A program made the translations under genes and the position numbers. This document shows, one piece after another, positions 34,824-57,642 of a DNA stretch of 64,000 nt (position 1 is its first letter; every line of letters begins with the position of its first letter). The stretch covers positions 14,880,001 to 14,944,000 of the forward strand of contig NC_092672.1 of assembly GCF_964355755.1 (NCBI RefSeq). Reading direction: 5' to 3'. The notes beneath the pieces were generated by a model. The model was not told the origin of the DNA, did not search any database, and was given only the letters and a program-made list of their open reading frames with translations. This DNA comes from Antedon mediterranea. Lineage: Eukaryota; Animalia; Echinodermata.

Positions 34824-34988
34824 CTGTGAAATGCATGGCGTCGCCCAGTTTGACCTTTTAACCCTGTACTTCCGATACTGTGTTTTGAATGCAAATTGAA
34901 GAACAGGAGATTCTTGTGTTATAAGTTATTTGGTTTTATTAGGAGTCGACATAGGCCTATAATAGTGTGTGTGGAAGTGCAAAAAATA

Positions 34989-35042
34989 ATGAATTCCTCA
35001 CTTTACAACTTAGAGTCAAAATTTAAAAGTATTTTTGCCAAG
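34989..35042 (+). CDS. Candidate Scm3/HJURP-family CENP-A chaperone, exon 1 (MNSSLYNLESKFKSIFAK)
   Basis: ATG at 34989, donor AAG|GTATGA at 35043, phase 0; splicing to 48963 builds a continuous Scm3-like motif; no in-frame ATG back to the upstream TGA at 34851. Confidence 0.7.
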
Positions 35043-35147
35043 GTATGATTTAATGTTTTAGGTATTCTAGGCGCCCGTCTAGGCATATAGACTAATCATA
35101 TTAACCGTAAAACAGTGACGAATTCTTCAACCTGGCCTAGGCTAGGC

Positions 35148-38100
35148 GGTTTACATACAGCCGAAACGGCCGCCGACTGAAACGGCCGCCAATTAAAACA
35201 CAATTGAATGTATGAAACGCCGCGTGTGCCGTTTGTCATACAACATGTAATCAAAACGACGTATGGTTTAAAACAATAGACACGTTTCGCGCTCGCGAGG
35301 TCAACGTCAGTTTGACCTTTTAGTGGGTATACAATGGTAAACAAACACAGCGAGAGGTATGTTAAAGCATGGGACACGTATGTTCGCCGCAATGCAAATT
35401 ATAGGTAATTGCTGAGAAGGTAAAACTATAGAGGGCGTCGAAGCAACCAAGCGTGTAATTAGAAAATTTTCGCACGAAACTTTTTGGACGACGCGCGGTA
35501 ACTTGACGATCATTCATACATTTAAAAGACCTAAAATATGTACACAAACTGCTCTATGATATTAAGCATTTAGCTTTTTTCATTTTTGAAATTATATTCT
35601 TTAGAAATGTGAAGATTTTAAAAATATTGATACAATATTTAAAATACTATCAAACTTCAAACATATCAATGCAAATGACAACAATAACACAACAACGCTA
35701 CGAGAATTTCGGAAGTAAAACGAGTCGTTTAAAATGTTAAATTGTAATTAATCTGAAGTTTTCCCAGATATGCAGTGTGTCATATCATTTTATTTAGATA
35801 TCATTTAATTTAATTCCAATTAAAATTATTAGGAGGTAATTACTATATTAGAGCATCATTTAACTGAATTTCGGCTATTTTGACACATCAGAATAGACGT
35901 GCCTATGTTAAAGCATAGGCGCGTCGCGCGTGGCGCGTCTTAAGGCTATTTATAGAGGCTTGAATATACCTAATTTTGTAGGCTTTACATACTTTTATTT
36001 GTAATTTAAAGACATAAAGCTGTATGACTTTATGAAATTATGCCAGACGGGCATTGTATATATTGTTACTTTCTATTATTTTCATTTTTGCATTTATTTT
36101 AAATACAGTATATGAATACTGTGTAGTACAATACGAGGCCTAGGTATTTCATGATTATAATAAATTGACACAACAGGCCTTATATTTATTATTTATAATC
36201 ACATTTTTTTTTATTATAAAAACATTTTGGTAAAATTAAATTACAGTACAGTAGTATGTTTAAAAGTCATTATTTTAACTTTTATATTTATTAGGCCTAG
36301 TAGTTATTATTTCAGAATGGATAAATATACTAGCAAAACACAAGTACTGTATGTGATTCACACTATGTAGAACATAATTGTGATTAAAAAGACAGTAAAT
36401 GAGCATAATTTTCTATCAACAAGTCAAAGTTGTCTCAGATTCCAAATCCATTCCAAAGTAACCATCTGATCATCAATTTGATGTATGTATGAGGAGTATC
36501 TGGCAGCATAAAAACTAGTTGACGATCATATCCAGGCCGGTCATTTTTTTTATCATATTCACCAGGAAAAGTACTTCATCCAATAGTACTTATTGCATTT
36601 CTGTTAACTCTAGAAATATCCTTAAACAATAAAAGAATTGTTGTTTGTTACTCATTAGTTATAAATTTTCCATTGTATTTTAATTGTATGCAAACAAAAA
36701 GAATAGAATAAAATATGTGTTACCTCTAACTATAATGGAATAACCCAAACCTAATGTTGTATAACAAAATACAGATTATACTATTATCAAAGACGGGTAG
36801 GTCACTGTAATGATTTTAAGGAGCTAAAATCGTATTATTGTATAATTAATTAATAACAATATAAAAATACTAATATTAACGTTAAAATTATTGCGAAACA
36901 TTAGTTCTTTAAAATTTCTAAAGCTAGTGAAGAATCCAAGTATATTCAATAACGAAAAGTGTTAATCAGACAAAGAGAGGCCTAGCCTAGACTAGGCCTA
37001 CGTACATGTTTTTCCAAAATATTACACGTGGTAGCTAGCCTCAACTCGATATAAACTAATTTAAAATAAGATAATGTAATTCACATTACCTTAAATAGCA
37101 TTTAACCAACTTTAGTGTGTTTGGTTGATCACTAGCATATTCAAAACAACCGTATTTTAGGGGGAAAATAGTGATTTTTTATCACTTTCTCCACCTTTAT
37201 CTCGTCGCCCCATCAATTACCTCCATAATGCTTTCAAAATACATAACAAGGTCAATCTCTCATGAATATGTATGAGAATATCTGACCTCTCAAAAAACTT
37301 TTGAATTTTTTTTATAGATGTTTGAAAATTACATGATTTTTGGCGTAAAATTTGAGTGAAATTTGAGTGAAAGTTAACATAAATAATAGCTATACTGTGT
37401 TTTATATTTTTATTGTATTTTTAGATATATTGAATAATAAAGTTTAAAGGAAAATAAAATAACTTGTTTGAAGGTCATAACTTTATAGAAAGGTTATGTA
37501 AAATGCCAGGTCATTTGTTGATCAAAATGTAATCGACCGTTACGCGAAAATAAACAACTGCGCGTGTGGCTTTTAAACGGTGCGTGGTCGCACATGCGCA
37601 GAACCAATTTCATTCGGGAACGTACGTGGGGAGAACTGAGAGATGATCATCTTAAAAAGCAATCGTCAAAACTAGCCTTTTGATGGAATGGCATGGTAAG
37701 GATGTTATTTATTTTCTAAACTTATGTTTTATATTCACTGTAGAATTATTTGGGCATTTGGTTCGGAATCATCGACTTTATTTATGTATTGTCATTTTTG
37801 GTTTGACATATATAATTACGGTGCATTACATGTTAACTGTTGATTTTATTTACAAATGTTGCGTAAATATATTAATTATTATCTTTCATTCTTCTTCATG
37901 TTCCTATTGCATCTTCCATGTATTATGTGATGTTCTTCGGCGCTTAAACAGACACCCAAGCCTCCTAGGCCTAGTAGACCAAGTACCGCATCATCAGGCA
38001 ACGCCACCGGGCGGGCACATCGTGGACGTACCTTTCCTTGAAAAATTTCCAAGATTTTGCGCCACTATACTTCGGAGCCGACGCAAACCACTCAGCAAGT

Positions 38101-38529
38101 GTTTGAAAATTAATTACAGGAATATTATTCAGTGATTTTGTGTAGTTAAATTCACGATTTATCCAACATATACAACATTTATGATGCACCTTGTAACAAA
38201 AGCACTCGGCAGTCGCCATTTCGCTATGCTTCAACACGCAATATAGCTGTGTTCGGTTTGTTTACAAATCTATACCCACTATTTCTGATTGGTCGCGAGC
38301 GCGAAACGTGTCTATTGTTTTACTTTTTTTCAGATTGAAATGAATTTAGACAATATTAAATTATATAAGATATAGGCCCTAGGCGCTATTACTGCAGTTT
38401 CGCACCACACCTCACCTAAACTTTCCTTTTTCACACTCACAACATAATATTATGTAACATGTTTAAATACGATTTGACTACTTACGAAGTAAAGGCCGTT
38501 TCAGTCGGCGGCCGTTTCGGTCACACGCC
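35148..38529. mobile_element. Mutator-like non-autonomous element with 8-bp TSD
   Basis: TIR CCGAAACGGCCGCCGACTGAAACGGCC (35161-35187 / 38494-38520); TSD GGCTAGGC at 35140-35147 and 38530-38537. Confidence 0.8.
35274..38317 (-). mobile_element. Nested TIR element (ISL2EU-like) with a remnant protein-coding exon
   Basis: Perfect TIR CAATAGACACGTTTCGCGCTCGCGA; minus-strand ORF remnant KSWKFFKERYVHDV ... HIIHGRCNRNMKKNE. Confidence 0.6.
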
Positions 38530-38964
38530 GGCTAGGCTATTCTCTAAGGCCTAGGCCTCTAATAGTAGCCTCCTGAGTCCTAGGGCCTAACTAGCCTAGG
38601 CTAGGCTAGGCTTAAGTATTATTATTATTACTAATATAGGCCGGCCTGGGTCAGGCTGTTGTACGTTGTGACTCTCCTGTCATCAGTGTAGTGTGGTGGG
38701 GGAACGAACGGGTGCTAGAACCCATACCCAAACGGCGCTAATGAAATGCAGTTTCGTACCGAATTCGATCCAACTCGGCCCTAAACCATCTCGGCCAAAG
38801 TCAAGTCGACCCCACGTCAAGTCGGCCCCAAGTCAAGTCGGCCCCACGTCAACTCGGCTCAAGTCAACTCGGCCTCAAGTCAACTGGGCCTCACGTCAAC
38901 TCGGCCAAAAACTAATCCGTCAACTCGGCCTCTAAAAACTATGGAACGCAAAAAGTGCTAATAT

Positions 38965-39990
38965 AGTAACTCACCGTACACCACTCTAAATGAGTGGTGC
39001 AAGAGGCTGGTGAGCCAGTCGTGGCCCTCTATATTAGCCTCCCTCGTCTTCTGAAATTGTCTTTTAAATAGTATGGTTGTTTCAACTTCTACTGTACTGG
39101 CAGGGAGAGCATTCCATGAATTTACGACTCGGGTAAAAAAATGACTACGGCAATTTAATCTAGCATTATTCTTTTTCAATTTATGTTTATGACCCCTAGT
39201 GGTGGTATATTCAGACTTTTTAAAAAGTAAATCACTATCAATAGCCTCTTTGTTAGAAAGAAAATTGTATGTTTGAATCATGTCCCCTCTATGTCGTCTT
39301 TCTTCTAAGGTTGTTAAATTAAAAACTTTTAACCTATCTGCATAGGGCATGCCATGCAAACTAGGTGGTAGCCTAGTTGCTCTCCTCTGAACTTTTTCTA
39401 ATAATGAATGTCTTTCCTTAGTTGAGGAGACCATGCCTGGACTGAAAATTCGAGATGAGGCCTGACTAATCCAATATAAAGCGATTTAATCATATCAACT
39501 GATTTATATTTAATGGATCTTTTAATAGTACCTAAAACTCGATTTGCTGTTTTGGCTGCTGCTACACATTGTTTACTAGTCTTAAGAGATTTATCAATAA
39601 TCACTCCCAAGTCTTTTTGTTCTGTTACTTCATCTAGGATAACCCCATCAAGTTCATAAGAATGATTCGGATTATTAAATCCTAGGTGCATGACATTGCA
39701 TTTACTACTATTAAAGCTCATTAGGGATTCACGACACCAAAGTGATAACTTGTCAATATCATTTTGTAGTACTCCAGGATCGACCTCGGAATGCACACTT
39801 CCAAACAATTTAATGTCATCAGCAAATTTCAACAATGAAGAATCAATGGAAAAATCTATGTCATCAATAAAAATGAGAAAAAGCACCGGTCCGAGGACCG
39901 AACCCTGAGGCACACCACTATGAACAGGGGCCCACTCAGATTTCCTACCATTCACAACAACCCTTTGAAATCTATCACTAAGCCAATTTT
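38965..39990 (-). mobile_element. CR1 LINE 3' fragment inserted in the foldback's left TIR
   Basis: SGVPQGSVLGP, KFADD, KDLGV, LVRPHLEF, LEKVQRRATR. Confidence 0.9.
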
Positions 39991-40596
39991 GTGTCTCAGC
40001 CTTGGCTAATTAGTAGTTAATATTATAATGGCAGGATATAGTACGGTTAGGCCTACATAATAGACGAAATAAAACGGAAAATTCAATATAAATTGTAACA
40101 CACTGGTCCTGATCGTTTTTTGTTTTGATAAGTAGTAGGCTATTTATTTATATTGTTTGAAATAAATAAATATTTCTTCACATTTTGTATACAGGAATAA
40201 CTGTCGAAGAAGACAACTGTCTACAACTCTATATACCTCAATATAAAAAGAATAAAATAACATTAAAATCATAACAAATCAATAGGCAAGAATACAAATT
40301 GCATAAGCATTATGGGGATAGGTTACATGCACACACACCCAGATATGAATGTGCATTATTTTCAAATAGGCCTTACCGTTTTTTTTGTATGAAATTGTTA
40401 TTTTCATTTCGTTTCTACTTCATAATTATTCATAATTAATACAGTACACCATGGGAAGAAAGAAATTTGCTTCCATGACAGTCCATGTTGTTATTTCTCT
40501 TAATTTTAAGGTATTGTTCTTTTTCAAACAAAGTATCACATGATGACTGACGTTTGTATATAACTGTTATTTGGCTACTGTATATTCTCATGACTA

Positions 40597-40986
40597 AAGG
40601 GGCATTCACATCTGTTCCGTTTCACGGAACGTAAAACGGCACCGTTTTGTTCGAAAAGCGTTAAAACAATAGCAGCGTTTACACCAAATCTGTTCCGTGA
40701 AAAATGAACGGCCGGTGAAAAACAACGGAACGGACAGATCGCTCATAACTTGATAGAAACGGAACGGAAACGAAACACGGTCTAATTTGACCAATCATAA
40801 CTCGTTTCGTAGTTTATTATGTCAAGGGTCATGAAGTTAAAAAAGTGCGGCGGGAATTGGAGAGACATCTGATCGAATGAGTGTGAATGCTTAAAACGGA
40901 ACGGTGAACGGGCGCGTGTCGCGTTGAAAAAAACGGCGCCGTCTTCCGTTCCGCGAAACGGAACAAGTACGGTGGGAATGCCCCTT
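40597..40986. mobile_element. MITE (PIF/Harbinger-like termini)
   Basis: AAGGGGCATTCAC...TGTTCCGTTTC mirrored by GAAACGGAACA...GAATGCCCCTT; flanked by TA. Confidence 0.7.
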
Positions 40987-41202
40987 TAGGTGATCACTTT
41001 CATTGAACAATATCAGGGCGCGGTGGGTGTTAAAAAAAACAGATAAGAATGCTACTTAGGCAATATTATGTTGTTTAGGAATTCCGTTGTTTTGGACTCA
41101 AACAATATATGTTTTAGTTTTTGCTTGACAAAATAAAAATACGCCATTTTTTCATGATGATTTCTTCAGTGTGTTTTAGATTAATTTCCCATACATGTAT
41201 TC

Positions 41203-42012
41203 TACCCTTTTTACACTATCGACGGAGAGAGGAACACGAGTTGAACTCGGAGGCAATTTCCATTTACACTAGCCAAAAATATTTTTCTTTTTAAAATGAC
41301 TGCATTTCCGCCTTGTAGACTGTACGTACATTAAATAGGCCCTAAATTGTTAGGTTGCCGTAAAAATAGGGTAGGTACGGTAAGTATTTAAAATAAAAAA
41401 TGTATTTGTTAGTTAATTAGCATAACAATGTATCAATGAAGGAAAATTATTATATGGTACTTTTTCAGTTCCTAAAAAAGATATCATTTTCATCCATTGA
41501 GACGTCAGTATTATATATATTTTTCCCTTTTTCAATAATTAGGCCTACATAGAATCGGCCAGGGTAGAGTTACACCAATATTACATTATTTTAGGCTTTC
41601 TGGTAAGGTAGAATGCACACGAACATTTCAATATTTTCAGCAGAAAAGAATGAGTCATAAATTTGTTTGTGCCTTTAAAAGAAAATAACGAACAGCACAA
41701 CATATCGTACAATTGTTTTAAGCAAAAAAAACTATTTTGTTTGCATAATATATTGTATTTCTGTGACAACATGTTAAATTTTCACGTCAATGACCTTTAA
41801 CAGCTCGGTGTTGAACCACAAAAACTTCGTGTCTCTGAGAAGGTACACCGGAAAACATTCAGCTTCATTTCACCCCGGGAAGAGCACACCGGGGTGGTTG
41901 GATTTTCCCATTTACACCAGTCAATAAAAACCACAACACCGGAGTTTAACGGCCCGGTGTACTAACAACTGCGGGGTTACACCGCTGTTACGGTGATAGT
42001 GTAAAAGGGGTA
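41203..42012. mobile_element. MITE
   Basis: TIR TACCCTTTTTACACTATC / GATAGTGTAAAAGGGGTA. Confidence 0.65.
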
Positions 42013-42345
42013 TTCATTGGATTCTCCATTATTTTATAATCAAATCACAAAAGTAATAAAAACAATTTGAATAGCGCACAATTGCAATAGAACATTAACA
42101 TGACAGAACATTCCGAATTTGTTTCCATAATCTCTTCGGTAGTTTGATTGACATTGTCATTGTACCCCCGAAAAAATAAATGTGTGAAAGATATTGTTAC
42201 TGTAATATACCGTTTTAATGTCACAATTATATAGTTATTCACTTTGACCGTAACATATTGCTAATAATTTGAGAGAAAATATATACAAAAAAAACCCCAT
42301 TTTTATTTTACTGTATTATTAATCTAATAATATCTATATAATATA

Positions 42346-42849
42346 CAGTAGAACCTCCATTTTACGTACGGTACGGGACCGAAAGACGTACGTAAAACAA
42401 GGGATTCGTAAAATCAAGGTTGACCTTAAATTGACCCCAAATACGTAGAGATCGTAGCTAGCCGTGTTTGCCTACTTCTGTACAGTATGCAGGTGGTCAC
42501 TAGCTAGGCCTTGCCTAGACTATTCAGGCCAAGCTAGCAGGCCTAGCAAGATGTGAGGCCTAACTAGAAAAGTACAGTATACAGGCTGTGCGATGTTTAA
42601 AATAAAGTGTAAAATATAATTGTTTTCTATCAATATTAAAAACAGTCGCTGCTTTAGGGGGAATGCACGTGCGTAGCTTGTCCCACACACAGCAGAATTC
42701 CTCACACAGCCATGATTGTGGCTTTGTGTGCTTTGTTGTTGTTAAATTGCGCCCTCAATGTAAGAAAATGATGACGTCATCGGTTATTTTAAGCGTACGT
42801 AAAATCGAGGGAACGTAAAATCAGGGTACGTAAAACACAGGTTCTACTG
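42346..42849. mobile_element. Tc1/pogo-like MITE
   Basis: TA|CAGTAGAACCT...AGGTTCTACTG|TA. Confidence 0.8.
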
Positions 42850-43323
42850 TATAGGCCTAGCCTTCTAAAAATATTTCGATGGGAACATCCTTGTATCAAA
42901 AAATAGATCTAACAAACACATTACTGAGGGTTCTTACTGAGACTAACCAACCAACAATATAAATAAATACTAAAAAACGATCAGGCCCAGTGGGTTATAA
43001 TTTACATTGAAATTTCCGTTTTATTTCGTCTATTATGTAGGCCTACTATTACTACTATATTTTAGCACTTTTTGTGTTCCATACTTTTTAGAGGCCGAGT
43101 TGACGGATTAGTTTTTGGCCGAGTTGACTTGAGGCCGAGTTGACGTGAGGCCGAGTTGACGTGAGGCCGAGTTGACTTGAGGCCGACTTGACTTGGGGCC
43201 GACTTGACTTTGGCCGAGACGGTTTAGGGCCGAGTTGACCTGCGCCCTTCGTACCCACCCCTTAAAATTACTCGAAATGTTTTCAATACTTCATCTAGGC
43301 CTAGGGCCTTAACCTAGTTAGGC

Positions 43324-44669
43324 AATGTCAGATGAAATCGGTTGCGCTTGAAATCGGTCGCGATAAAATCAACATCCGGTATATTGTATGGAGTGCCATT
43401 AGATATGCTTTTTATCATATAGTTACGTTTGATATCGGTCGTGTTTTATTTTGGTCGCGCTAATTTGTAAGGGTATGTATGGTAACACATTTTAGCAGTA
43501 TAAATTACGAACGATATACAAAATACACGAACGGAAAATATGGATACGCATCATTGCGCACGGAGCTGTATCCCGGACAATGTTGCCAGGCCAACTTCGG
43601 TATTGCCAGAAAAAAAACGTTGATTTTAAGATATTAAATCGTCATTTACTCGCTGAATAACCGTTTATACGGTAATAATTTTATCTAAAAAAATTCTAAA
43701 TACGTTTCTGCAAATGCACAAGCATTTTTTAGAAAATACTTCATAGATTTCAAGAGTTATAGCCAAAAAACTGCAAATTGTCCATTGGAGGGATAGGAAT
43801 ATATTCGCAAAGTGACGTCACCCGCAAATTTTTTTGATTTTCAAATGGGGCTTTCCCCAAAAGGGCCAATTTATATTTTGTAACAATATACATTCTAGCA
43901 ACACCTAATAGCCCCCAAAACATCATTCTAAAATGAAAAAAATCGAAAATCCATTTCAGGTCCATTTTAACCATGGAACTATGTTTCACAAAATCACGTG
44001 TAGGAGGCCCATAGATGTTTCAAATGTATGGTTTTTAGTAATAGGGCTATACGTCATTTTACCTAGCCATGGGAAACAATCGTACGTGTTTTGTCCATGA
44101 TTTGAAACACTAGTGCATGTTTTTTTTAAAGGGGAATCCCGTCAGCGAAATAACGTACAGTTAACGGCTGCACGATAATAGAAGGCGCATCTGATATGGC
44201 TTATTTGGGGGTTTATTTCAGTAACTCGCCTACGAAATTGTTTTCATAATAAAAGACACAGACATATATTCTCTATATAATATATTAATTACAATACATA
44301 ATAAAATTATTATATGCATATTATTCTGAACGTGTTTAGAAATGCCATTTTGAAAAGATACAGATCCTCCGAGACCTGTGAAATGAAAAAAAATAATGAT
44401 TGATAATAAATATTTATTAACCAAATAAAAAATATCCACATAAATATTCTAGTTCCTAAAAAATATCAATTAAATCTATTTAAACGAAGAAAATGTATAT
44501 CCCGCTAGCATGCATCTCGCTCCATACAAAATAGCGCGATTTCAAACGCGACCGATTTCAAACGCGACAGATATCATCAAACGTATAGCTCTAGCGGCGC
44601 GCCATACAAAATACCGGAAGTTGATTTTATCACGACCGATTTCAGACGCTACCGGTTTCATCGTAAACC
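43324..44669. mobile_element. Mutator-like MITE with 8-bp TSD
   Basis: TSD AGTTAGGC at 43316-43323 and 44670-44677; ~60-bp TIR GATGAAATCGGTTGCGCTTGAAATCGGTCGCGATAAAATCAAC. Confidence 0.8.
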
Positions 44670-45199
44670 AGTTAGGCTAGGCTACTCACGAGTTGTCTAC
44701 AACATTCTGCAAGCATAAAATTGTAAAATATCGATAATTTTTTATTTATAAATATTTTTAATCAATTAATAATTGAGCACCCTTCAGAAATCCATCGGCA
44801 GCTTAGCTTCGCGAAAATCATCGCCAGGCATGCCGAAAAAGTATGGAGGTATCATAGGGCATCGATCTATAGAGGACGCTGTTAGGTATAACAAATATTT
44901 TTTACATGTTCCTCATGAAACGAATTTTAAGTCTTTTCATAAAGAAATATTTTGTGTTTAATTACGCTGTTAATTTTTAGAAATTCTTTTTATTTTACCT
45001 TGAATTTACCTTGAATCTTCGAGACTTAGAGAACTGTGCTTATTTGTCCCTCAAACATTACAGCATCCTCTTCCAACTTATGCGGGCAGAACTTTAAATG
45101 GTGGCCAGACCAGAACTTCCCAATACCCGCTATGAACTTATTGAAAGAAGGGAGTTCCAATCATTCACGACGCGAGAAGCAAAGGACTTCTTCCTTACA

Positions 45200-45900
45200 A
45201 TCAAATTTGTTTTAGATTTATATACTTTGAATGGAAGGCCTCTAGTCCTAGAATATTCAGATCTCTTACTGTAAATAATCTATCAGGATCCAAAGAATAA
45301 TACCATGAAAAATCTTATAGAATCTGAATAACATCTGCTCTTTTTTTCCTGAATAATAATGTGAGTAAATTTAAAGTCCTCAGCCTAGTATCTACATAAT
45401 CTTTATCTTTCAAATCCTTAATCAATTTATTTTAGTCCTTCTCTGCTGAACTTTCTCTAGTAATCTGAGTCTTATATCTAGGGCCGGTTCCAAACACAGC
45501 TACCATATTCCATTAACCGGTCGAATCATAGACTTAGATAAACGTATATCCTGCACTATCAAGATTTTTAAATGATCTTTTAATCAGACTCAATCTTCTA
45601 TTTTAGCTGCTCTCGCAACTTTAACAGAATGAGCTGAGAAATCCAGTTTCCGATCAAACTAAATACCAAGGTCCGATTCTACATTAACCTCTGCAATTTC
45701 AACTCCTCCTATATAATATTTAAACATATTATTCCCTCGACCGAAATGCATTATTTTGCATTTAGATAAATTAAAGGGTAATTGTCAATCCAGTGACCAC
45801 TTGTATAAAATATCTACATTCTGCTAAAGAGTATCTCTATCCAACTCATTACTTACTACTCTATATAGCTTGGTATCGTCTGCAAACAATTTAATATATT
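45200..45900 (-). mobile_element. Degraded CR1 LINE 3' fragment
   Basis: IKLFADDTKLY, FNLSKCKIMHFG, DLGI; many stops. Confidence 0.75.
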
Positions 45901-46942
45901 ATATATTTTAAGTGTTGTGTGTTATTGTCTTGTCAAATTATATTTTTGTGAGGGTCCCTAATGATCAGCTTCGCTGGACGGATCATCCTCGAGTCGTAAA
46001 ATATTGTTAAAAATAAATAATGAATAGTTGATTCATTATTTAATGTTATATTTTTATGGAAAGAAGATAAAAAAGAAGAAATGAAAGACATGAAATGATG
46101 TATTCAGTGTCAGCAGAAGTAAAATAAATTCTAGTAATTGATGGAAAACATTTTTATTATAATTATCATTGTATTACTGTACATTACATTTCAATAAATC
46201 ATATCTTTCTGTTTTGTTGCATTTCTTATTTCCATGGGTGAATAAAAAATGTTAATATATACTTCTATAAAATCAGGGAAACCATTGGCGTTTTAACATT
46301 ACTAAAACAATTAATTTGTCATAAGCTTGTTTATTGTGTTATAACATTGTAGCTTATGACTGAAGGAAGTACTGCCATTCTTTTAATTTCATTTATTTAT
46401 TTGACCTACAAACCATAATGTAAAATAAACTGAAACAGAGAAAAATTGGTCAGTACTTATATCAGTCTTCAAGAGTCAGCAGTTCTATATTTATCTTCTT
46501 TTCTGTGTGAAATTCTACTATTAAAATGAAAGAAGAACAAGAACAAATTAAAAACATAACATATGGTGATACCCACAATGATGAATACAGCAATTGTATA
46601 TTATTTCTTTATTAAAAATACAAAACTCATGTCGGAATGCAAATTATTATTTAGTACGTGCTTTAAACATTAAGTTCTACGCCTTTTATTGAACGCAACA
46701 GTTTACTCTATCAAGAGTTAATGCCCTATGAGGCCTCCATACTTTATCGGCAGGCCTAGCGATGATTTTCGTGAATCTAAGCTGGCGATGTATTTCTGTA
46801 GGGTGCTCAATATTAATTGATTAGAATTAATTATAAATTTTAAAAAATATCGATTTTTTACAATTTTATGATTGCAGGATGTTGTAGACAACTCGTGAGT
46901 AGGTTGGATGAAGATTTTGAGTAATTTTAAGGGGTGGGTACG

Positions 46943-47766
46943 AAACTGCATTAGCCCCCCTAAACCAACCCGTACACATGCTAACCCGCATGTAATGCAA
47001 AGTCGTACACATGCTAACCCGTACACATGCTAAACTGCATTAGCGCCCCTAAACCAACCCGTACACATGCTAACCCGCATGTAATGCAAAGTCGTACACA
47101 TGCTAACCCGTACACATGCTAAACTGCATTAGCGCCCCTAAACCAACCCGTACACATGCTAACCCGCATGTAATGCAAAGTCGTACACATGCTAACCCGT
47201 ACACAAGCTAAACTGCATTAGCGCCCCTAAACCAACCCGTACACATGCTAACCCGCATGTAATGCAAAGTCGTACACATGCTAACCCGTACACATGCTAA
47301 ACTGCATTAGCGCCCCTAAACCAACCCGTACACATGCTAACCCGTACACATGCTAAACTGCATTAGCGCCCCTAAACCAACCCGTACACATGCTAACCCG
47401 CATGTAATGCAAAGTCGTACACATGCTAACCCGTACACATGCTAAACTGCATTAGCGCCCCTAAACCAACCCGTACACATGCTAACCCGCATGTAATGCA
47501 AAGTCGTACACATGCTAACCCGTACACATGCTAAACTGCATTAGCGCCCCTAAACCAACCCGTACACATGCTAACCCGTACACATGCTAAACTGCATTAG
47601 CGCCCCTAAACCAACCCGTACACATGCTAACCCGTACACATGCTAAACTGCATTAGCGCCCCTAAACCAACCCGTACACATGCTAACCCGTACACATGCT
47701 AAACTGCATTAGCGCCCCTAAACCAACCCGTACACATGCTAACCCGCATGTAATGCAAAGTCGTAC
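46943..47766. repeat. Homogeneous minisatellite of mixed 89-bp and 56-bp units
   Basis: Unit starts at 46943, 47032, 47121, 47210, 47299, 47355, 47444, 47533, 47589, 47645, 47701; internal 17-mer CGTACACATGCTAACCC. Confidence 0.95.
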
Positions 47767-47819
47767 CTAATTATTTGGCTTATAGTTGACGTTGTACCAG
47801 GGAAGAGTTAAATTACCGC

Positions 47820-48790
47820 CGTGGGTGGCTAAATTCGGTACCGTATCCTAACTTCCGTCTGCTAAAGGTATGGTAAAATTGTATTACGTCATAATCAGCC
47901 AATGGGGTGCTGGTACGTGTGTTGTCATCGATAAGGACTTTTTTCATATCTCGTCTGTAGAGAATGCCTATCAGCAGCGCCAGGTTGTGATGTGTGAGCT
48001 GATTCTGTGACTTCAATCCAGAAGTTTGATAACGGGAGACAACATTGATTCTGTAGACTTAATAAAGCAAGTTCATGTGGTTGGTGGACGTTACAAAACA
48101 TGCACTCAATCTCAAATATTATTTCATTCATTATACATCATATAGTAGTAGTATTATAATTAAATCCGATATGTTGATAGCCAAATTAGAAAAACTACAA
48201 AGAAATTATAATTCAATGTTGAAAATTGTGTTGCGTCTAGTTCATTTGTCCATAGTTACTATTAATAAGGAGTTTTATTTTTATTCCAAATGGCCTATTT
48301 AGGCCTATATTTTTTTTTATTAAACTTTGTTTACAGATGGTGACCATAAACAACAAGCAAATGCGGACATTAAATATATTAAATACTATGATTTAGCCCC
48401 AGGGCTGGGTCACAGAAATCAGTGCACACATGCAGCTGGCCACAGCCTAGCACCGCTTTCCCTACACAAACAAACTCATATAATGAGGCTATAGGTTATA
48501 TGTAGTGCGTAGTAGGCCTCTTTTGAAACGGTTTTCTGTATTTGGCTTTTCAATAATAGCAGACGTAGGCTACATTTAGTTTTTGTCAAACACGAAGTAG
48601 CGATAAATAAAGCATAAAGAAAATGTTAAGCGGTTGATCACTGATTCGCGATAAAAACCAATCCAAAGTCCTTATACAATGACGTCAAACACGTACCAGC
48701 ACCTCATTGGCCGATTATGAAGTAATGCAATTTTACCGTACCTTTTGCAAACGGAAGTTAGGATACACTACCATATCTTTAGCCACGGCT
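47820..48790. mobile_element. MITE with ~110-bp TIRs
   Basis: GTATCCTAACTTCCGTCTGCTAAAGGTATGGTAAAATTG mirrored at 48690-48790; related fragment at 50545-50620. Confidence 0.75.
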
Positions 48791-48962
48791 AAAAAAACGG
48801 CTGAAAAAGTATCACTATCAGTAGAGTAAAGTTTAAATATGTATGCAATACAACTTCTATATTTTTGTAAATGCAATAATTTTAGCCTTTGGCTACGTTT
48901 TGTGTTTATACCAGAATAAAATAAATTAACTACATTCATATGCTTTTAATTGTTTTTTAAAG

Positions 48963-49032
48963 TATAATCAGCCATTCCCAGATGATGATGAAATTGACCT
49001 GAATACACTCGATGTTACGGTAGGTAACAAAG
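48963..49032 (+). CDS. Candidate Scm3/HJURP-family protein, exon 2 (YNQPFPDDDEIDLNTLDVTVGNK)
   Basis: T-rich acceptor with AG at 48961-48962; donor AAG|GTGAGT at 49033; 70 nt, phase 0 to 1. Confidence 0.8.
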
Positions 49033-50065
49033 GTGAGTGCTAACTAATTTACCATATTTATTCGAATAAACACTTTCATCAAATAAACGCCCTGCCACAT
49101 GCATAGTATACACAATATTGTATTTTATATAACACCTAAATAAATTGCTGTCATTTGATTGGACGATTGAGGGTCACATGGCGTGCAATAGTACTTTTTG
49201 AAACATTTTTGTGTACGAAAAAAAAAAAAAGTTTCGTGGATGAGAATAATTACCTAAATTTTAGATATACAGTACTGTAATATGGCTCTGTACTGTGAAA
49301 TACAACAACGGCACCTGTCGCCTGGTGGCCTCAATTTCCTTTCTCTTTTAAACATTTTTATTTTGTGTACGAAAAAAAAAAACGTTTCGCAGATGAAAAA
49401 AAATCTAGTACTATATACAAATTAAATGTTAGATATACTGCAGCTGTAATGGCTCTGTGCTGTGAAATACAACAGCGCCACCTGTCGTCTGGTATCTTGT
49501 ACCGCGGGCAGCTTTAGATTGTTTTTAGGATTTTGGTTAATTAATGGGGACATCCCTACAAGACGTGGAATTGTTGGAAAAACCATAATTAGCCTAGATA
49601 AGTTCCAATTGTCTGTCGAAGTTTTGCCTTTCAGCCAAGCTAGTACTAGGCTATTACTAGGTTGGTCGTTTGTTGACATAATTAACACAAAAGTAGTGTA
49701 GTACTAGTAGTGTTTATAAAATCCATATAAATATAACATTTAATATAAAATTATTAAAAACGAAATGTTTTTAATCAATGTGAATGAAATGTAGGCCTTG
49801 GCTAGGGCTACCTTATTTGATTTAAATGACAGGAATTTATTTAGATGTTATATAAAATAAATAATGAATGTTTTGTATTCGTGTAATGGTACAAATAATG
49901 GCACTTAGTGAATGATGAAAGGTTATATTATATAACCTTTCATCATTCACCATTTCTATTTATCATCCTTCATCATTTCTATTTTAGAATCCATTGATTG
50001 ACATGATCTACAATCTAATTATGTTATATTTGTTCACATCTACTAGGGAGTAATTATTATAACAT

Positions 50066-50431
50066 TTTTATTTTTATTTTATTTTTTTATTTTTATTTTA
50101 TTCAATCGAAACCAACAGCGATAATTACCGCCACTAACAGGTTTGATACAAACAAAGCCAGGAGAGTTTAAAGCACCTTGATTGGTCCTGACATTGATCA
50201 AGGGCTTCTCTCGTCCAGTGCCCACCTTGACCAGAGGTCTGAGGCAGATACTAGATGCAGGGGCTGCCATAAGAGTCAGCAGTGCTGATTTCAAATGCCT
50301 AACGGGACCCCAGCTCCGTATACAGCACCCGCTATTCCCAGATGGTCTCCCATCCAAGCTCTAACCAGGCCCAACGTTGCTTAACTTCGGTGATCTGACG
50401 AGAACCGGTGTTTCAACGTGGTAAAGCCGTA
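50066..50431 (-). mobile_element. 5S rRNA-derived SINE (SINE3-type)
   Basis: 5S-like head at 50321-50431 (GATCACCGAAGTTAAGC...GCTTGGATGGGAGACC), ~220-bp unrelated body, A-rich (TAAAA)n tail. Confidence 0.8.
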
Positions 50432-51322
50432 TTAAATTAAACATTACACATTACATTAAACATTACCATATTACACTAAAAAAAATTTTTTTAGGTCAAA
50501 GTTTTAGTTAAATGAATAATTATAATTGATATCCTAGAGATACGGTACTGTATCTTACCTTCTGGCTGCTAAAGGTACGGTAAATGGCATTACATCATAT
50601 CATGGCTATCCAATAGGAATGATGATTTGTTTGTGATCATTTGGTATAACAAAGCTCACAGAATCAAAAGCATGCAACACAAAGATAGCACGACTAGACA
50701 ATGAATAATGATTTGAAAATCTTTGCAACAAGCTAATCTTGACCTACTATACTAGCAAAAATAACATACTAATTGCTGTAATAATGCATATAATAAAACG
50801 TCAGCAGCTGGCTGCTGTTGTTAGGGCTAGGCCCTGACTGGGGTTAACTTAACCTAGGGCAGGCCTTATATACAACTTTAATAAGGATGGGAGACGACAT
50901 CTTCGATATGAAACGCAACCATCTCCTCAGTCATACATTGATCTAAACTAGTTTTGTAAGAACATTTTAATGCAAAAAATATCGCTATTTCTGTTGGGTT
51001 GAGGACATGACAGAATCTGCAATATAATAATACAACATACAGCATCATAAAACTCCCTATTATTTGTAATCGCACTGTTTATTTATGTTTTACTGTATGA
51101 TGGAATTACATTTGTTTATAACACAGGTCATCTGGCGAAAATACAAATAAATATGGGCTTTGGATCTTTTACTTTTCAATCAGGTATTCAACCTTTTATA
51201 GTAAATTACTACTATTAGTATTGATGTTTTTGATATTATGTAAATCACTAAAACTTGGTTCTAACTAGGATGCAACACAAGGACATAAGCGCAACATAGG
51301 TAACCAATCATAATGGATTGTT

Positions 51323-51694
51323 ATAGAGTTTTGCGGTGCTGAAGTCATGACGGTAGGTGGCGCTGCATGGTTGCTAGCCAACCAAGAAATGCGTTCAACC
51401 TGACTCTTGTCACCAATAGTTTGGAATAGGCTTATTGAAGTAGTCATTTTAAAACTTAATAATTTTTTAAAAAAACAAACTAAAATTTCAAAAGATCACT
51501 AAATATTTGTTTTTAATGATCTATTGATTCTTCAACTATAGTTTAAGTTAACAAAAATCAAGCCAAGATACATAATTTGATAGAAATACAGATCTATACA
51601 GTTTATCAACATAGTAGCGTTGAACGCATTTTTTGGTTGGCTAGCAACCATGCAGTGCCCTCTATCGTTGTGACGTCGCACCGCAGAACTCTAT
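51323..51694. mobile_element. MITE with ~75-bp TIRs
   Basis: ATAGAGTTTTGCGGTGC...GCATGGTTGCTAGCCAACCAA mirrored at 51620-51694. Confidence 0.8.
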
Positions 51695-51975
51695 TGTTAA
51701 CTGTTGCTTGTCGTTGCTCACTCACTCACGGTGTGCTGATCTGATAGACGCTGCACTGCTGGCTGCCGTGGGTCCGTAGAGGGCCTATCTGAATCTCCTC
51801 AGTTTCCAGTTAAGCTTGAGGAGGACTAAGATAATTACCTTTTACTATTTTACTTTTGTTGGGTCTACGTCCATTTTGTTACTAGTAGGAACCATGCTTT
51901 AATAACGGTACTCACAATTTAAATTATTGAACATAAAGTTGACAGATTAACATACAACAATCTTAATTCTTCCAG

Positions 51976-52043
51976 GTTGTGATTCTACAAAAGAAAGTAC
52001 AGACTCGGCTCTTGGTAGTACAAACTACTCGGACAACAATGAT
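51976..52043 (+). CDS. Candidate Scm3/HJURP-family protein, exon 3 (GCDSTKESTDSALGSTNYSDNND)
   Basis: TTCTTCCAG acceptor; donor GTAAGA at 52044; 68 nt, phase 1 to 0, fits both neighbours. Confidence 0.7.
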
Positions 52044-52224
52044 GTAAGACTGTCATTATTATCAAGTTATTGCTGTAGTTTAGAAATCTGCGACAATAAA
52101 ACTCAGACTGCTATCTGAAATATATTTTTAATAAGAATGACACTCCGAGAGTGCATACCTCCGCCTACTGTAAAATTGTAAGATTTCACAGAGGAAAAAA
52201 TATACATATTAAATTTGTGTCTTA

Positions 52225-53151
52225 CGCCCGTATTCTTAAACCGGACTTTAGTCGTAGTTCGAAGTTCGACTTGAAAAAGTCGTAGTTCGAGCTATTACTT
52301 CAAATTCGATTCAAAAGCGAAGTAGTCAAAGTTTGCAGTTCGACTTAATGAAGTCGAGCTTTTAGTCGAGTTGCACACGTCTGGGTAACAAAAGCTATAC
52401 ATTTGGCCAATGACAAGAGAGTATTTGAGGAGCAGAGGAAATTTTGCGCATTGATATCACTTTCCATTTCTTACAACACTTTTTACGCATCAGGACTATA
52501 TACATGAAAAATAATTTTAATCGTTAATTATTAGAACAATATCAGTATTAATTTAACAGTGAAGTATATTTGATTAACAACAAATAAAATCTTCAAAATA
52601 TATTTAGGAACCATGGCGGTACGGTAACTTTTATATTTTCTAGGCCCCCAACAAAGTATAATCGCGACGAACCAAGCACTTCATAGCGTGACAAGAAAGC
52701 GCTAGGCCCCCTAAACATTCCATCGCGTGGTGAATTGCTGCATCTCCCATTGTCGCTATGGCGTGACGTAGCTGAAGTCGGACTTGCGTGAAGAAAATAA
52801 TGTAATTTGTATACAGTTGTAAATAAAGATGATTTTCATTATTATAACTTATACCAATGTATATTTAATTAAGCTAATATAAATATAGATATTTCATTCT
52901 TCAATATCTGGCCAATATAACAACTCAATGACTGTTACGTTTTTGATAAACATCGTTTAAAAACCATTTAGTCGACCATTTAGCCTGCCCCCTCCAGGAC
53001 TAAAAAATCGATCAAAATCCGTCTCGATTTGGTCGAGGTTGGCCTGATTTAGTCGGTGATTTAGTTGAAGTTCGGTTTATGAATTAAAATGACGTCATTT
53101 TTTTAGTTTTAGCTCGAACTACGACTAAAGTCCGTTTTAAGAATTCGGGCG
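52225..53151. mobile_element. PIF/Harbinger-type MITE with TTA TSD
   Basis: 38-bp TIR CGCCCGTATTCTTAAACCGGACTTTAGTCGTAGTTCGA; TTA at 52222-52224 and 53152-53154; empty site in the copy at ~5430. Confidence 0.88.
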
Positions 53152-53651
53152 TTAATGCTGTGTGTGATTAGGCTAATTTCACTACAACCACGTATATGCA
53201 AATTTGGTGTAATGGTTATGTATACAATAGTTTCAGTTGACTTACAATAGAACAGCAACGTCAAAAACAAACGGGTGAATTTGAAAAGAAATAGGTATCG
53301 AAAAACCTGTTAATCAAATTATGTTTTAAAATTACAAATCACACATTATAACTCTTGCCTCTTGTACAAAAATGGACATGTAGAAACAGAAATACAGCCT
53401 GCTCGCCGAATTTTGAAAATTGTCTCCTATCTTTTAACATGTCTTTTAGCATGTCTGAAAATAATACTAAAAAGTGGTCCAGAATTGGGACCCTGGTCCG
53501 GATTGCCTCCAACATTTAATGGAGTGGTCCTCGACCACATAACTGTGTATTTTCATTTTGTATTGGTAAAGATCTTGCAATAACTTTTTGAGTAATCCTG
53601 CTAACAAATAGACAAACAAACAGACACATGCAATCGATTTCATACCTCCTT

Positions 53652-53943
53652 TGATTGATTGATTGAATTTATTTGATGCTCAACATTAAAATAACGAACA
53701 GACAAAAGACAAAATAACGAGCATCAGGAACACCCATTAGGCCGGAAAAACCAGCCCATTTCCAATGGGGTCCAAATTGCACATAACAAACAAGAGAAAA
53801 TACAACATTTATAAAACTATAAATATATAAATATACATAAAAATAAAGCCCAGTAAAACAGAAAAATTAAAAAAGAAAGCAAACAAGTAATGAGAAAAAT
53901 TGCACGTTATCAAGACCATTATAGTTATCAAAATCGAGGTAAA
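53652..53943 (-). mobile_element. Short 5'-truncated retroposon 3' end with (CAAT)n tail
   Basis: Minus strand AATAAATT(CAAT)n tail; interrupts the HINE head. Confidence 0.6.
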
Positions 53944-54906
53944 TTGGCGGAGGTAAATAAAAAATATACTCCATTAATGAAAATTAAAGTTCTTTTATCA
54001 TAAGTTAAGGATAGTGAGAGAATGATATACATTTTATAAGCATAAATAAGCTTTTTTTTTTCCCAAATTTCTTTCAGAGGGACTACGGGGTAGTACTACT
54101 TAGTCAGGTCGCTTATCACTTTTTTTGTGTATTTTGTGACAAAAGCACCAAACTTGGCAGAAACCTTCTTTAGGACCTAACTAACAATTCTAGAAGGGGT
54201 GCCCAAAAATTCGAACAATTTAATGATGTCATTTTGACCATGCCAATTTTTAATATCTTATTAGCTATGTAAAAATATTTTAAAAATATAAATTACATAA
54301 ATATGTCAAGTTTGGTTTTAAATCATAGCTTCTGTACAATATCACTAACATGAGAAAAATATAATTTACAATATAATGACGTTATCAAAGCCACACCCAT
54401 TATATATTACATAACTTTGTGGGAAAATTTAAGAAATTAAATTAATATGGCATGTTTGGTATTAAATTAAAGCCACGGAACTATATGAAATATAATTTGA
54501 ACAATATAATGATGCCATTACTTAAGCCACACCCATTATATAAATATATTATTACATAACTTTGTGAAAAATGAAACGGCAATATGCGTTCAGTAACTGA
54601 GCTAATGATTACGTAATCATTGTTGAACATATGCTCACTTGGGTTGATTTGCATAAATGCCATGTGACGTATAATAGAAATCTCACTAGCTAGTGTGGCT
54701 AGTTGAACTAAAGTGAAATGTTTCGGCCCACAAAGTTTGGTCCGGGTCGAATCATCTCCCAAATTGTCCCAGATTTCAGTCTTGAATTTATTGACAGAGG
54801 GGAATTTTATACCTTATTCCGATAGAGAATTAATCGTAATGTAAAATACGTTATTACATAATGAAATTCATCTCATTTTTAAAAAATAAAATGTTTTCTT
54901 TTTTAG

Positions 54907-57090
54907 AATACTTCTGATGAAAACTATTCATTAGAAAATAGTAGTTCTGGTAAAGATTCTGATGGTAGTGGCCCAGCACATCAGACGCCAAAAAGAAAGA
55001 GATACTGGAAAAAGAAAAGTCAAAACGATAAAAGTAATCTCATACACCCACATGAAACAACACTGCATGTCGGAAGTGACTCATTAGAAGATGTCCAGTA
55101 TTATACTAATGAGTCTGAAGACAAATATGTTTATAGCAGGCATTTCAATAAGGGAGAAGCTTTTAAAGATAGCGATACACTGTCTAGAAAAATACCATCG
55201 ATTCGTGTAGAAACAAGGCAATTTGTTGAAACTGTTCAATCCTTCATTTTGGAAGGTCCACACTCATCTTTTTCTTCAGATGAGGAAGAAATGGAGCTTA
55301 TTAATGATGATGTCATTGAGTGCAGTACTTTCAGACTCGGTAGTCTAAATTTTCCATTAGCATCTGAAATCTGTGGAAGCCATTCTGGTACAGGAGTCTC
55401 CAAACAAAGTATAATGAACACAACATACACAGTTGATGGCTCAGATATGAAATGTAACTCTGTTTTTAATCAACCAAAGTTTATGCAAAGTAAAACATCC
55501 AGTTATACTGGTATGGAATGTGGATCAATTTCCAAAGTATCAAATCAATTTCCTAATGTTCCTCAGAGACCCGTAAATAAATCTATTTTAAGTAAACCTG
55601 ACTTTTGCCATGAAAACAAATTAAAAAATATGTTTCCAAAGCCTGATTTTAAATTAGATGTAGCCTTTAAAAATAGTGAAATTGTTCAAAAACAACAAAC
55701 TAAACCATTTCAATATTTTGGGAAGCATGATTCTACAAAGTGTGGGAAATCATCCATAAATGTTTCCAAACCTGAAAGATTAAAAGATATGCCGAATTCC
55801 CTTTTAACGCCAAAAAGTAAAATTCACCTAAATTTACAGCTAACAGCTCCAGCAACCCCAGGTTGCACTACTGAAGAGATTATACAGTTTATGAACTCAC
55901 CACTTGAAGTTCTTATGGAACAGAATAATGCAAGAGCTGCTCTTGAAAAGTCTTCTAGAAAGCACTTCTCTTTTTCCCCAGAACCTGCAACAGCTGAATC
56001 TCTGGATACTGAATCAGTAGATGTAGAAACAGCTTTTGCCACTCTTGTTTCTTCAATCGAAGACCAGGAAGTTGGTATTAAAACACCAAATCGACTTCCT
56101 CGTAATCAATGTGCTAAACGGTCTCCAAGATTACTTATCTCACCTTGTAACAATTTAATTGTGAAGTCACCAAGAAATTGTAAGAGAAAGATTGATAACA
56201 GTAAAGATTTTAAAGCAACATGTAAGAATATGATTGAAAGGAAGTTTAAGGATTCAGATGATCGAATAAATTCAATTGTTATATCAGATGATGACAGTTC
56301 AGATGCTAAAGCTTTTAGCATTAGTGCACAGAAAAATACAATTTTAACCACACATAAGCCTAAACATGTTCACCACCAGGCCACTCAAAAGATAATTGTA
56401 GAAACAAAAGAACATAATGATGGCAGTACTAGTGTCAAAAGCAATCAGCTAAATAATAATTCAAATGAGAAGGATGTTTGGTGGGTGAAGAAACCTTCTT
56501 TGCCAATGGAAGAAACCAGGGTGATTAAAACGGCTGCCAGAAGTACTACCAGTAATAACATTAAGACAGAAGATATTTATGCAAACAACACATATTCATG
56601 GTTCGTAAACAAGCACCCAGATGAATCCAGCATTGATGTCAGTAATGTAAGTATGCTGTCTGTCATTCATAAAATCAGTCCTGAACGATGTCAAAGTTTA
56701 TCAGTTGACCCAGTTTCTTATAAGAATGATGTACTTCAATCACCAAAATCAATTCGTATCCCATCAAGAACATCTCCAAGAAAACAGACTCCTTCCAATT
56801 CCACTCTCAAGACATCAACTTTACCAAGTGTTCGGACATCAACCCCAAGGAAATCAAAACCAAAGTCGTTTCATATCGCAAAGAAAATACCCAACAGCAA
56901 ATCTAATTTAAATTCAATTACATCTATTTCCGAAACTAGCAAAGAGAAGAAGAGCTCCCAGGGGAATTCAAAATCCATAAAACAGGGAAATTCTTCAAAC
57001 ATTTCTTCTAAGAATTTATCAGCTTCATTTTCTTGCTTAGGTCCTGGTCTATGCGAGAAAGCATTCTGTTTTAATTGTACATTTAGCTAA
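54907..57090 (+). CDS. Candidate Scm3/HJURP-family protein, large last exon (727 aa, S/K/N/T-rich, C-terminal Cys4 motif)
   Basis: Acceptor TTTTTTAG ending at 54906; frame open for 114 codons before the 55249 ORF; stop at 57088-57090; AATAAA at 57699-57704. Confidence 0.88.
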   Translation, partial: NTSDENYSLENSSSGKDSDGSGPAHQTPKRKRYWKKKSQNDKSNLIHPHETTLHVGSDSLEDVQYYTNESEDKYVYSRHFNKGEAFKDSDTLSRKIPSIRVETRQFVETVQSFILEGPHSSFSSDEEEMELINDDVIECSTFRLGSLNFPLASEICGSHSGTGVSKQSIMNTTYTVDGSDMKCNSVFNQPKFMQSKTSSYTGMECGSISKVSNQFPNVPQRPVNKSILSKPDFCHENKLKNMFPKPDFKLDVAFKNSEIVQKQQTKPFQYFGKHDSTKCGKSSINVSKPERLKDMPNSLLTPKSKIHLNLQLTAPATPGCTTEEIIQFMNSPLEVLMEQNNARAALEKSSRKHFSFSPEPATAESLDTESVDVETAFATLVSSIEDQEVGIKTPNRLPRNQCAKRSPRLLISPCNNLIVKSPRNCKRKIDNSKDFKATCKNMIERKFKDSDDRINSIVISDDDSSDAKAFSISAQKNTILTTHKPKHVHHQATQKIIVETKEHNDGSTSVKSNQLNNNSNEKDVWWVKKPSLPMEETRVIKTAARSTTSNNIKTEDIYANNTYSWFVNKHPDESSIDVSNVSMLSVIHKISPERCQSLSVDPVSYKNDVLQSPKSIRIPSRTSPRKQTPSNSTLKTSTLPSVRTSTPRKSKPKSFHIAKKIPNSKSNLNSITSISETSKEKKSSQGNSKSIKQGNSSNISSKNLSASFSCLGPGLCEKAFCFNCTFS

Positions 57091-57199
57091 AATGATATTG
57101 TGTGTTTGAGTAGTAATTCTACTTTTGGTAGCAAGGCATATTTATAATTTGGTTTGATCTACAAAGTTGATTGTGAAACAGCATTGTAGATCAAATTTA

Positions 57200-57642
57200 A
57201 TGACAAAAAGAATCAACATTTCAGGACCACCATGGATCCATTTTCAATTAAAAATTATTTTAATTTTGATGATCCTGAAACATTGATACTTTTTTTTTAA
57301 ATTGAAATATTATGTTCCATAGAATAAGTAATTAGTCCTGCTACCAAAGACAGTGTTCTCCAATCTCAAGGTATTTCAAGAAATTTAACTGTAAATATGT
57401 GTTTTTTAATACATACATATTATGACAAAAAGAATCAACATTTCAGGACCACCATGGATCCATTTTCAATTAAAAATTATTTTGATTTTGATGATCCTGA
57501 AACATTGATACTTTTTTTAAAAATTGAAATATTATGTTCCATAGAATAAGTAATTAGTCCTGCTACCAAAGACAGTGTTCTCCAATCTCAAGGTATTTCA
57601 AGAAATTTAACTGTAAATATGTGTTTTTTAATACATACATAT
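57200..57642. repeat. Near-perfect 222-bp tandem duplication in the 3' UTR
   Basis: ATGACAAAAAGAATCAAC starts at 57200 and 57422. Confidence 0.92.

What the first reader, a model, noticed from the sequence alone, without database searches (positions are those of the whole stretch)
34989..57090. Candidate Scm3/HJURP CENP-A chaperone hidden by micro-exons in an invertebrate-type genome
Seen: four GT-AG, phase-compatible exons (54+70+68+2184 nt) give a 791-aa protein starting MNSSLYNLESKFKSIFAK|YNQPFPDDDEIDLNTLDVTVGNKG. Recalled family knowledge, not aligned by tool: human HJURP has ...MQRLIEKYNQPFEDTPVVQMATLTY, and fungal Scm3 has helix-I(F/I)xKY...D(E/L)(I/V)DLxTGEIV. This sequence combines the HJURP-like KYNQPF with the fungal-like SIFxKY and DEIDLxT, placed at the extreme N-terminus of a long disordered protein of HJURP-like size. 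Established: the CENP-A deposition chaperone is well characterised in fungi (Scm3), tetrapods (HJURP) and flies (CAL1) but has been hard to detect in most other animals. Inference: this is the ortholog, missed because the ~40-aa domain is split by a 13.9-kb intron. I cannot check whether it has already been reported.
Basis: partly seen in the sequence, partly recalled or inferred. Interest (0 to 1): 0.9.

Follow-up and report, generated by a model that had tools for sequence, protein, structure and literature searches.

The report
Feather star centromere histone chaperone HJURP
This feather-star gene carries the Scm3 domain and likely encodes HJURP, the helper that loads the special centromere histone onto chromosomes; echinoderm members of the family were published in 2026, so it is an ordinary new member, apart from a cysteine motif at its end that may be shared with fungal relatives.

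Summary
The gene is real and the family is right, but the model is incomplete and the discovery is already in print. The four exons exist. NCBI's 810-aa model XP_071945777.1, labelled Antedon mediterranea, adds a 57-nt exon (51127-51183) carrying the end of the scm3 domain. It passes Pfam Scm3 at 38.5 bits against a cut-off of 24.3. A two-crinoid profile run on 1.84 billion proteins gave 15 non-query hits, all 15 with Scm3. Hollis et al. 2026 (PMC13322267) report echinoderm HJURPs, and their alignments hold the 40%-identical Anneissia ortholog. The domain was therefore not hidden by the intron. A side finding remains: a four-cysteine motif ends the protein in 7 of 7 echinoderm species and weakly matches one fungal genus's Scm3. 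No read across a splice junction was seen, and CENP-A binding was not tested. The scan noted an HJURP-like gene before, in another genome (e1-9944759). New member of a known kind; interest 0.2.

The parts
34989..35042 (+). Coding exon 1: Met1 to Lys18, predicted helix of the scm3 domain, ending on the K of the KY motif
   Evidence: helix 2-19 at pLDDT about 90
35043..48962 (+). Intron 1, 13,920 nt, GT-AG, phase 0, between K and Y of the KY motif; repeat-rich
   Evidence: repeats seen
48963..49032 (+). Coding exon 2: Tyr19 to Lys41, acidic/hydrophobic stretch, predicted beta hairpin
   Evidence: Pfam Scm3 hit on this exon alone; strands 28-30 and 35-38
51127..51183 (+).
   Evidence: the same stretch is in the published scm3 alignment
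51976..52043 (+). Coding exon 4, 68 nt: holds a DSA(L/I/F)GS block shared by echinoderm HJURPs
   Evidence: also visible in the paper's Data S2
54907..57090 (+). Coding exon 5, 727 aa plus stop: Ser/Lys/Asn-rich, predicted disordered, with S/T-P sites
   Evidence: 679 of 810 residues under pLDDT 50
54985..55017 (+). Basic cluster, residues 110-120; possible nuclear localisation signal (inferred)
   Evidence: sequence; partly kept in Anneissia
55201..55251 (+). Predicted helix, residues 182-198, with weak matches in starfish and urchin HJURPs
55870..55953 (+). Predicted helices, residues 405-432, in a block 60-67% identical between the two crinoids
57034..57078 (+). C-terminal four-cysteine motif C-x5-C-x-K-x-x-C-F-x-C, residues 793-807; likely zinc-binding (inferred)

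Best explanation
This five-exon gene encodes an 810-aa Scm3-domain protein that is likely the crinoid HJURP, predicted to bind CENP-A/H4 through its first ~55 residues and to load it at centromeres. Shown here: gene structure, Scm3 domain, orthology to published echinoderm HJURPs, predicted helix plus beta hairpin, disordered body. Inferred from the family (PMC13322267): the helix lies antiparallel to CENP-A helix alpha2, the KY motif contacts a conserved glutamate, and the strand meets loop 1, giving preference for CENP-A/H4 over H3/H4; the complex is brought to centromeres after mitosis by the Mis18 complex and/or CENP-C. Inferred further: S/T-P sites in the disordered part time this through CDK phosphorylation, and the C-terminal four-cysteine motif binds zinc and helps targeting.
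For: Pfam Scm3 38.5 bits, E 9.2e-10, cut-off 24.3, the only family hit. Two-crinoid profile against 1.84 billion proteins: 17 hits at E<=0.001, 2 of them query relatives; 15 of the other 15 hit Scm3, 12 of 15 above the cut-off. A profile of 18 of these proteins finds PDB 2L5A (E 1.5e-8), 2YFV (1.1e-4) and human HJURP 3R45 (7.5e-4) as the top 3 of 9 matches; the next is at E 2. The Anneissia ortholog (40% identical) is in the paper's Data S1/S2. A profile of the C-terminal motif alone recovers XP_038057064.1, the Patiria HJURP of the paper's Table S1. AlphaFold2 gives helix 2-19 and strands 28-30 and 35-38, pLDDT 80-90 over residues 1-40. The paper shows CENP-A preference, centromere localisation and mitotic failure on loss for the zebrafish ortholog. 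Starfish CENP-A loading needs Mis18BP1/Mis18 (10.1101/433391, passages).
Against: Only 18 residues precede the KY tyrosine, against 26 in Anneissia and a helix of about 25 in the family, so the binding helix is about two turns short. The single protein finds nothing in PDB by sequence at E<=10. The profile that found the solved structures contains fungal Scm3 sequences, so that match is iterative, not independent. The paper's functional tests are in zebrafish and C. elegans; I saw none in an echinoderm in the sections read.
Confidence: 0.93

Rival explanations
1. The gene is the HJURP ortholog but is mostly expressed as the 760-aa form that starts in exon 3, lacks the CENP-A-binding helix, and would act as a regulator or dominant-negative through its C-terminal part.
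For: NCBI lists XP_071945778.1 (760 aa) starting at the Met at 51153, with no Scm3 hit. An Acanthaster isoform also replaces the part before the KY tyrosine.
Against: Exons 1-2 are the best-conserved stretch between the crinoids (70% over residues 1-30). Both short forms are database models whose transcript support I could not see; they may be prediction artefacts.
Confidence: 0.04
2. It is a diverged paralog or weakened copy: the short helix would bind CENP-A poorly and another gene would do the loading.
For: Eight residues fewer in the N-terminal helix than in Anneissia.
Against: The frame is open for 810 codons; KY, the acidic/hydrophobic stretch and both terminal motifs are kept. Searches gave only this one Antedon locus. 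The paper finds a single strong hit in most deuterostome genomes. No whole genome was held, so a second copy is not excluded.
Confidence: 0.02
3. The exon 1 to exon 2 join is a chance splice and the long exon belongs to an unrelated disordered protein.
For: No junction-spanning contig was seen among the listed joints (245 joints not shown).
Against: NCBI's model makes the same join; the Anneissia protein is collinear with it end to end; starfish and urchin proteins share both the N-terminal domain and the C-terminal motif.
Confidence: 0.01

Closest known systems
Echinoderm Scm3/HJURP candidates of Hollis et al. 2026 (PMC13322267): Anneissia japonica LOC117125200, Patiria miniata XP_038057064.1, Acanthaster, Asterias, sea urchins
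   Same: N-terminal scm3 domain with KY, the acidic/hydrophobic stretch and GxL...FG; a DSA(L/I/F)GS block after it; long disordered body; C-terminal four-cysteine motif.
   Different: Shorter (810 aa against 889 and 1256-1382) and the N-terminal helix is 8 residues shorter than in Anneissia. The word Antedon had 0 hits in the paper's text-readable supplements; the supplementary PDF could not be read.
Human HJURP (748 aa; PDB 3R45)
   Same: scm3 domain at the N-terminus and similar size; matched by the family profile at E 7.5e-4.
   Different: The paper states that the vertebrate motif before the HMD region and the Mis18-binding R2 homology are absent in echinoderms. I did not align the full human protein. 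I recall no terminal four-cysteine motif in it; not tested.
Fungal Scm3 (Pfam PF10384; PDB 2L5A, 2YFV), including the cysteine-rich domain named in Folco et al. 2024
   Same: scm3 domain: the direct BLASTP match to an Ascosphaera-cluster protein is 45% over 56 columns. Hymenoscyphus Scm3 ends in a four-cysteine motif of nearly the same pattern.
   Different: Hymenoscyphus Scm3 carries a Myb domain that the crinoid protein lacks. The cysteine motif was absent from 11 of the 12 non-echinoderm hits. I saw only the title of Folco et al. in reference lists; that this domain binds zinc and targets centromeres in fission yeast is recalled.

Membership tests
Scm3/HJURP CENP-A chaperones | scm3 domain above the Pfam PF10384 gathering score | tested here: met
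   38.5 bits against 24.3, E 9.2e-10, residues 4-47
Scm3/HJURP CENP-A chaperones | KY dipeptide preceded by a hydrophobic helical repeat and followed by alternating acidic/hydrophobic residues (features from PMC13322267) | tested here: met
   K18-Y19 and residues 26-31; alignment; features read
Scm3/HJURP CENP-A chaperones | Reciprocal search returns Scm3/HJURP proteins | tested here: met
   15 of 15 non-query hits carry Scm3; 2L5A, 2YFV and 3R45 are the top 3 of 9 PDB matches
Scm3/HJURP CENP-A chaperones | Helix of about 25 residues followed by a beta strand | tested here: inconclusive
   Helix plus hairpin predicted, but the helix is 18 residues. 3R45_C is only rank 40 at Z 2.4, rmsd 4.1, 46 aligned. 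The Atlas's top 2 structural rows are Scm3 clusters, under its bar (TM 0.48-0.49)
Scm3/HJURP CENP-A chaperones | Long, polar, disordered remainder | tested here: met
   679 of 810 residues under pLDDT 50; 68.7% polar/charged/Pro/Gly in residues 63-790
Scm3/HJURP CENP-A chaperones | Binds CENP-A/H4 in preference to H3/H4 | not tested
Scm3/HJURP CENP-A chaperones | Centromere localisation and requirement for CENP-A loading | not testable with these tools
   Needs cells; shown for zebrafish in the paper
Fungal Scm3 cysteine-rich (CYS) domain | Four cysteines at the C-terminus, homologous to the fungal motif | tested here: inconclusive
   An echinoderm-only profile scores Hymenoscyphus Scm3 at 5.8 bits, above all of 1000 shuffles of each of the two proteins (best 2.7 and 5.2), 8 residues from the end. 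No fungal protein reached E<=10 in the database search. Fission-yeast Scm3 was not among my sequences
Fungal Scm3 cysteine-rich (CYS) domain | Binds zinc and aids centromere targeting (recalled) | not testable with these tools
   Paper not held

The most novel reading that the evidence does not exclude
Echinoderm HJURPs keep an ancestral two-ended design: the scm3 domain at the N-terminus and a zinc-binding four-cysteine module at the very C-terminus that is homologous to the cysteine-rich domain of fungal Scm3. That module would be their centromere-targeting part, in place of the vertebrate Mis18-binding region they lack. It would be a second family-wide marker besides the scm3 domain and a direct mutational target in starfish oocytes.
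Probability: 0.4. Interest if true: 0.45.

Novelty: new member of a known kind. Interest (0 to 1): 0.2.

Why it matters
It adds one crinoid to a family whose spread across animals was published and tested in 2026, so the main claim changes nothing. Two small points have value. The NCBI record is still named 'uncharacterized protein' and can be labelled. The terminal four-cysteine motif, conserved in all 7 echinoderm species seen and not mentioned in the paper's main text (the words cysteine and zinc occur only in one reference title), gives a testable handle on how echinoderm HJURP reaches centromeres.

Tried and rejected
Expression: the run search listed 5 runs, no RNA holder on record. Contigs of 4 of the 5 runs laid on 34300-52300 were swamped by repeats; none of the 15 listed joints matched a splice junction and 245 were not shown. 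Run X1 (guessed RNA) had no cover in one unique intron bin that X2 and X5 cover; this is no evidence either way. The junctions remain unseen in reads. Word search with residues 1-64: 1 candidate, none scored. Foldseek of the whole model against PDB: 0 matches. VIA-align: 115 chains at Z>=2, none at Z>=5. ESM Atlas for the C-terminal motif: nothing usable. Pfam has no family for exon 5 or its last 49 residues. The strict cysteine pattern was written after seeing the sequences, so its shuffle result (0 of 20,000) is biased and is not counted as support. No complex was predicted: no CENP-A/H4 of this species was at hand, and a textbook pair tends to pass by likeness. No whole genome was held, so copy number and synteny were not tested. 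Papers not held: Folco 2024, Sanchez-Pulido 2009, Williams 2009. Searches for the cysteine motif in animal HJURP found no paper describing it; the Data S2 full-length rows are cut in the text copy and the supplementary PDF is unreadable, so it may be visible there. Look-ups in PMC13079627, PMC11185503, PMC8015856, PMC13017519, PMC12532704 and PMC12695027 (passages) gave nothing on this motif. In one search, 2 of 17 proteins (P0014, P0016) were dropped because the anchor pattern did not match.

Full report
Observation. Exon 2 alone hits only Pfam Scm3 (E 8.5e-4, 19.4 bits, below the cut-off of 24.3).

Gene model. Searching with the long exon gave 2 hits among 7990 scored candidates: a 760-aa NCBI protein identical to the window, labelled Antedon mediterranea, and Anneissia japonica LOC117125200 with PF10384 precomputed. 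The cluster also holds XP_071945777.1, 810 aa. It maps to five exons; the extra one is 51127-51183, 57 nt, phase 1-1, and the five-exon translation equals the record letter for letter. That exon carries the GxL...FG stretch that closes the metazoan scm3 alignment. Against my reading: the profile score barely prefers five exons (51.6 against 50.5 bits), the exon can be skipped in frame, and I could not see the transcript evidence behind NCBI's model. No splice junction was seen in contigs (tables cut).

Family. The 810-aa protein passes Pfam Scm3 at 38.5 bits. The two-crinoid profile, scored against 1,835,955,588 proteins, gave 17 hits at E<=0.001; 2 are the crinoid proteins, and all 15 others hit Scm3, 12 above the cut-off. 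Seven of the 15 carry names: two starfish, one sea urchin and four ascomycete proteins, one named 'Centromere protein Scm3'. A profile of 18 sequences, fungal ones included, ranks yeast Scm3 (2L5A, 2YFV) and human HJURP (3R45) first among 9 PDB matches; the single protein finds none. AlphaFold2 on 20 sequences predicts helix 2-19, strands 28-30 and 35-38 and helix 44-50, with 679 of 810 residues under pLDDT 50. Structure searches were inconclusive. The helix is short: 18 residues before the tyrosine against 26 in Anneissia.

Mechanism. Shown: domain, orthology, anatomy. Inferred from the family as described in PMC13322267: the helix packs against CENP-A helix alpha2, KY meets a conserved glutamate, the strand meets loop 1, and the chaperone delivers CENP-A/H4 to centromeres through the Mis18 complex and CENP-C. 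Starfish need Mis18BP1 and Mis18 for CENP-A loading (10.1101/433391, passages). The protein has 14 S/T-P sites, 9 followed closely by K or R; a CDK timing role is inferred from recalled work on human HJURP.

Prior art. Hollis et al., Sci Adv 2026 (PMC13322267; I read the abstract, introduction, result sections 6, 7 and 11, discussion, method section 14, Table S1 and parts 1 and 5 of the data file; not the supplementary PDF) report scm3-domain HJURPs in echinoderms, fish, arthropods, nematodes and early-branching animals, with functional tests in zebrafish and C. elegans. Their alignments include Anneissia LOC117125200, 40% identical to this protein. Antedon had 0 hits in the readable supplements. 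So the species may be new to print, but the class and the family assignment are not.

The 'hidden by an intron' idea. NCBI's model joins the split domain correctly, so the gene was not lost to annotation. The split looks older than this species: two Acanthaster isoforms part exactly before the KY tyrosine, which suggests an intron at the same place; I recall the same for human HJURP but did not test it. Such models can drop the domain, as in NCBI's 760-aa form here.

Side finding. The protein ends in C-x5-C-x-K-x-x-C-F-x-C. This pattern is within 8 residues of the C-terminus in 12 of the 27 proteins stored at that point: all 9 echinoderm records (7 species), 2 Hymenoscyphus Scm3 proteins and 1 unnamed protein without a Pfam hit. 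A profile of five echinoderm ends found 7 proteins among 841 candidates: its five sources, the Patiria HJURP of the paper's Table S1 (E 4.3e-13) and the unnamed protein (E 2.6); no fungal protein. Locally it scores the Hymenoscyphus ends at 5.8 bits, above 1000 shuffles of each (best 2.7 and 5.2). Against homology: 11 of 12 non-echinoderm hits lack it, six of them short and possibly fragments, and the motif is small enough to converge. A cysteine-rich domain of fungal Scm3 is known by title (Folco 2024, seen only in reference lists); its zinc binding and targeting role are recalled. My searches found no paper describing the motif in animal HJURP, within the limits given under Tried and rejected.

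Verdict. Likely the crinoid HJURP (0.93), five coding exons, 810 aa. New member of a known kind; interest 0.2. The boldest open reading, an ancestral C-terminal zinc module shared with fungi, has probability about 0.4 and would merit 0.45. The scan noted a similar gene in another genome (e1-9944759); I did not check it and it is not support.

Noticed in passing
window 13445-17564 (-): LINE-like element: an upstream ORF without a Pfam hit (16707-17564), an endonuclease ORF (14844-16478) and a reverse transcriptase ORF (13445-14893) in overlapping frames.
   Followed up: partly
window 10215-10697, 22018-24334, 39398-40009, 62971-63618: Further reverse transcriptase fragments; the one at 39398-40009 lies inside intron 1 of the gene.
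   Followed up: partly
window 24916-25725 (+): 269-aa open frame with no Pfam hit; looks like a retroelement fragment (recalled resemblance to Penelope-type elements, not tested).
   Followed up: no
window 50317-50434 (-): Full-length 5S rRNA match (82.9 bits) inside intron 2, in a bin of very high contig depth; probably a dispersed copy or 5S-derived repeat.
   Followed up: no
window 26786-26857, 28966-29037, 59310-59382: Three tRNA-like sequences, two called Asp with the unusual anticodon ATC; probably tRNA-derived repeats.
   Followed up: no
window 34008-34813: Perfect 25-nt inverted repeats 756 nt apart (MITE-like), ending about 175 nt upstream of the start codon; tandem repeats of 86 nt x3 (33687-33943) and 52 nt x2 (33400-33503) lie just before.
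   Followed up: no
window 57195-57638: 222-nt tandem duplication, 98% identical, just after the stop codon in the likely 3' UTR.
   Followed up: no
proteins P0004 and P0019 (Acanthaster isoforms): The two isoforms differ only before the tyrosine of KY, suggesting an intron at the same position as intron 1 here.
   Followed up: partly
protein P0027 (unnamed, 1404 aa): Ends in the same four-cysteine motif but has no Scm3 hit; may be an HJURP model that lost its small first exons.
   Followed up: partly
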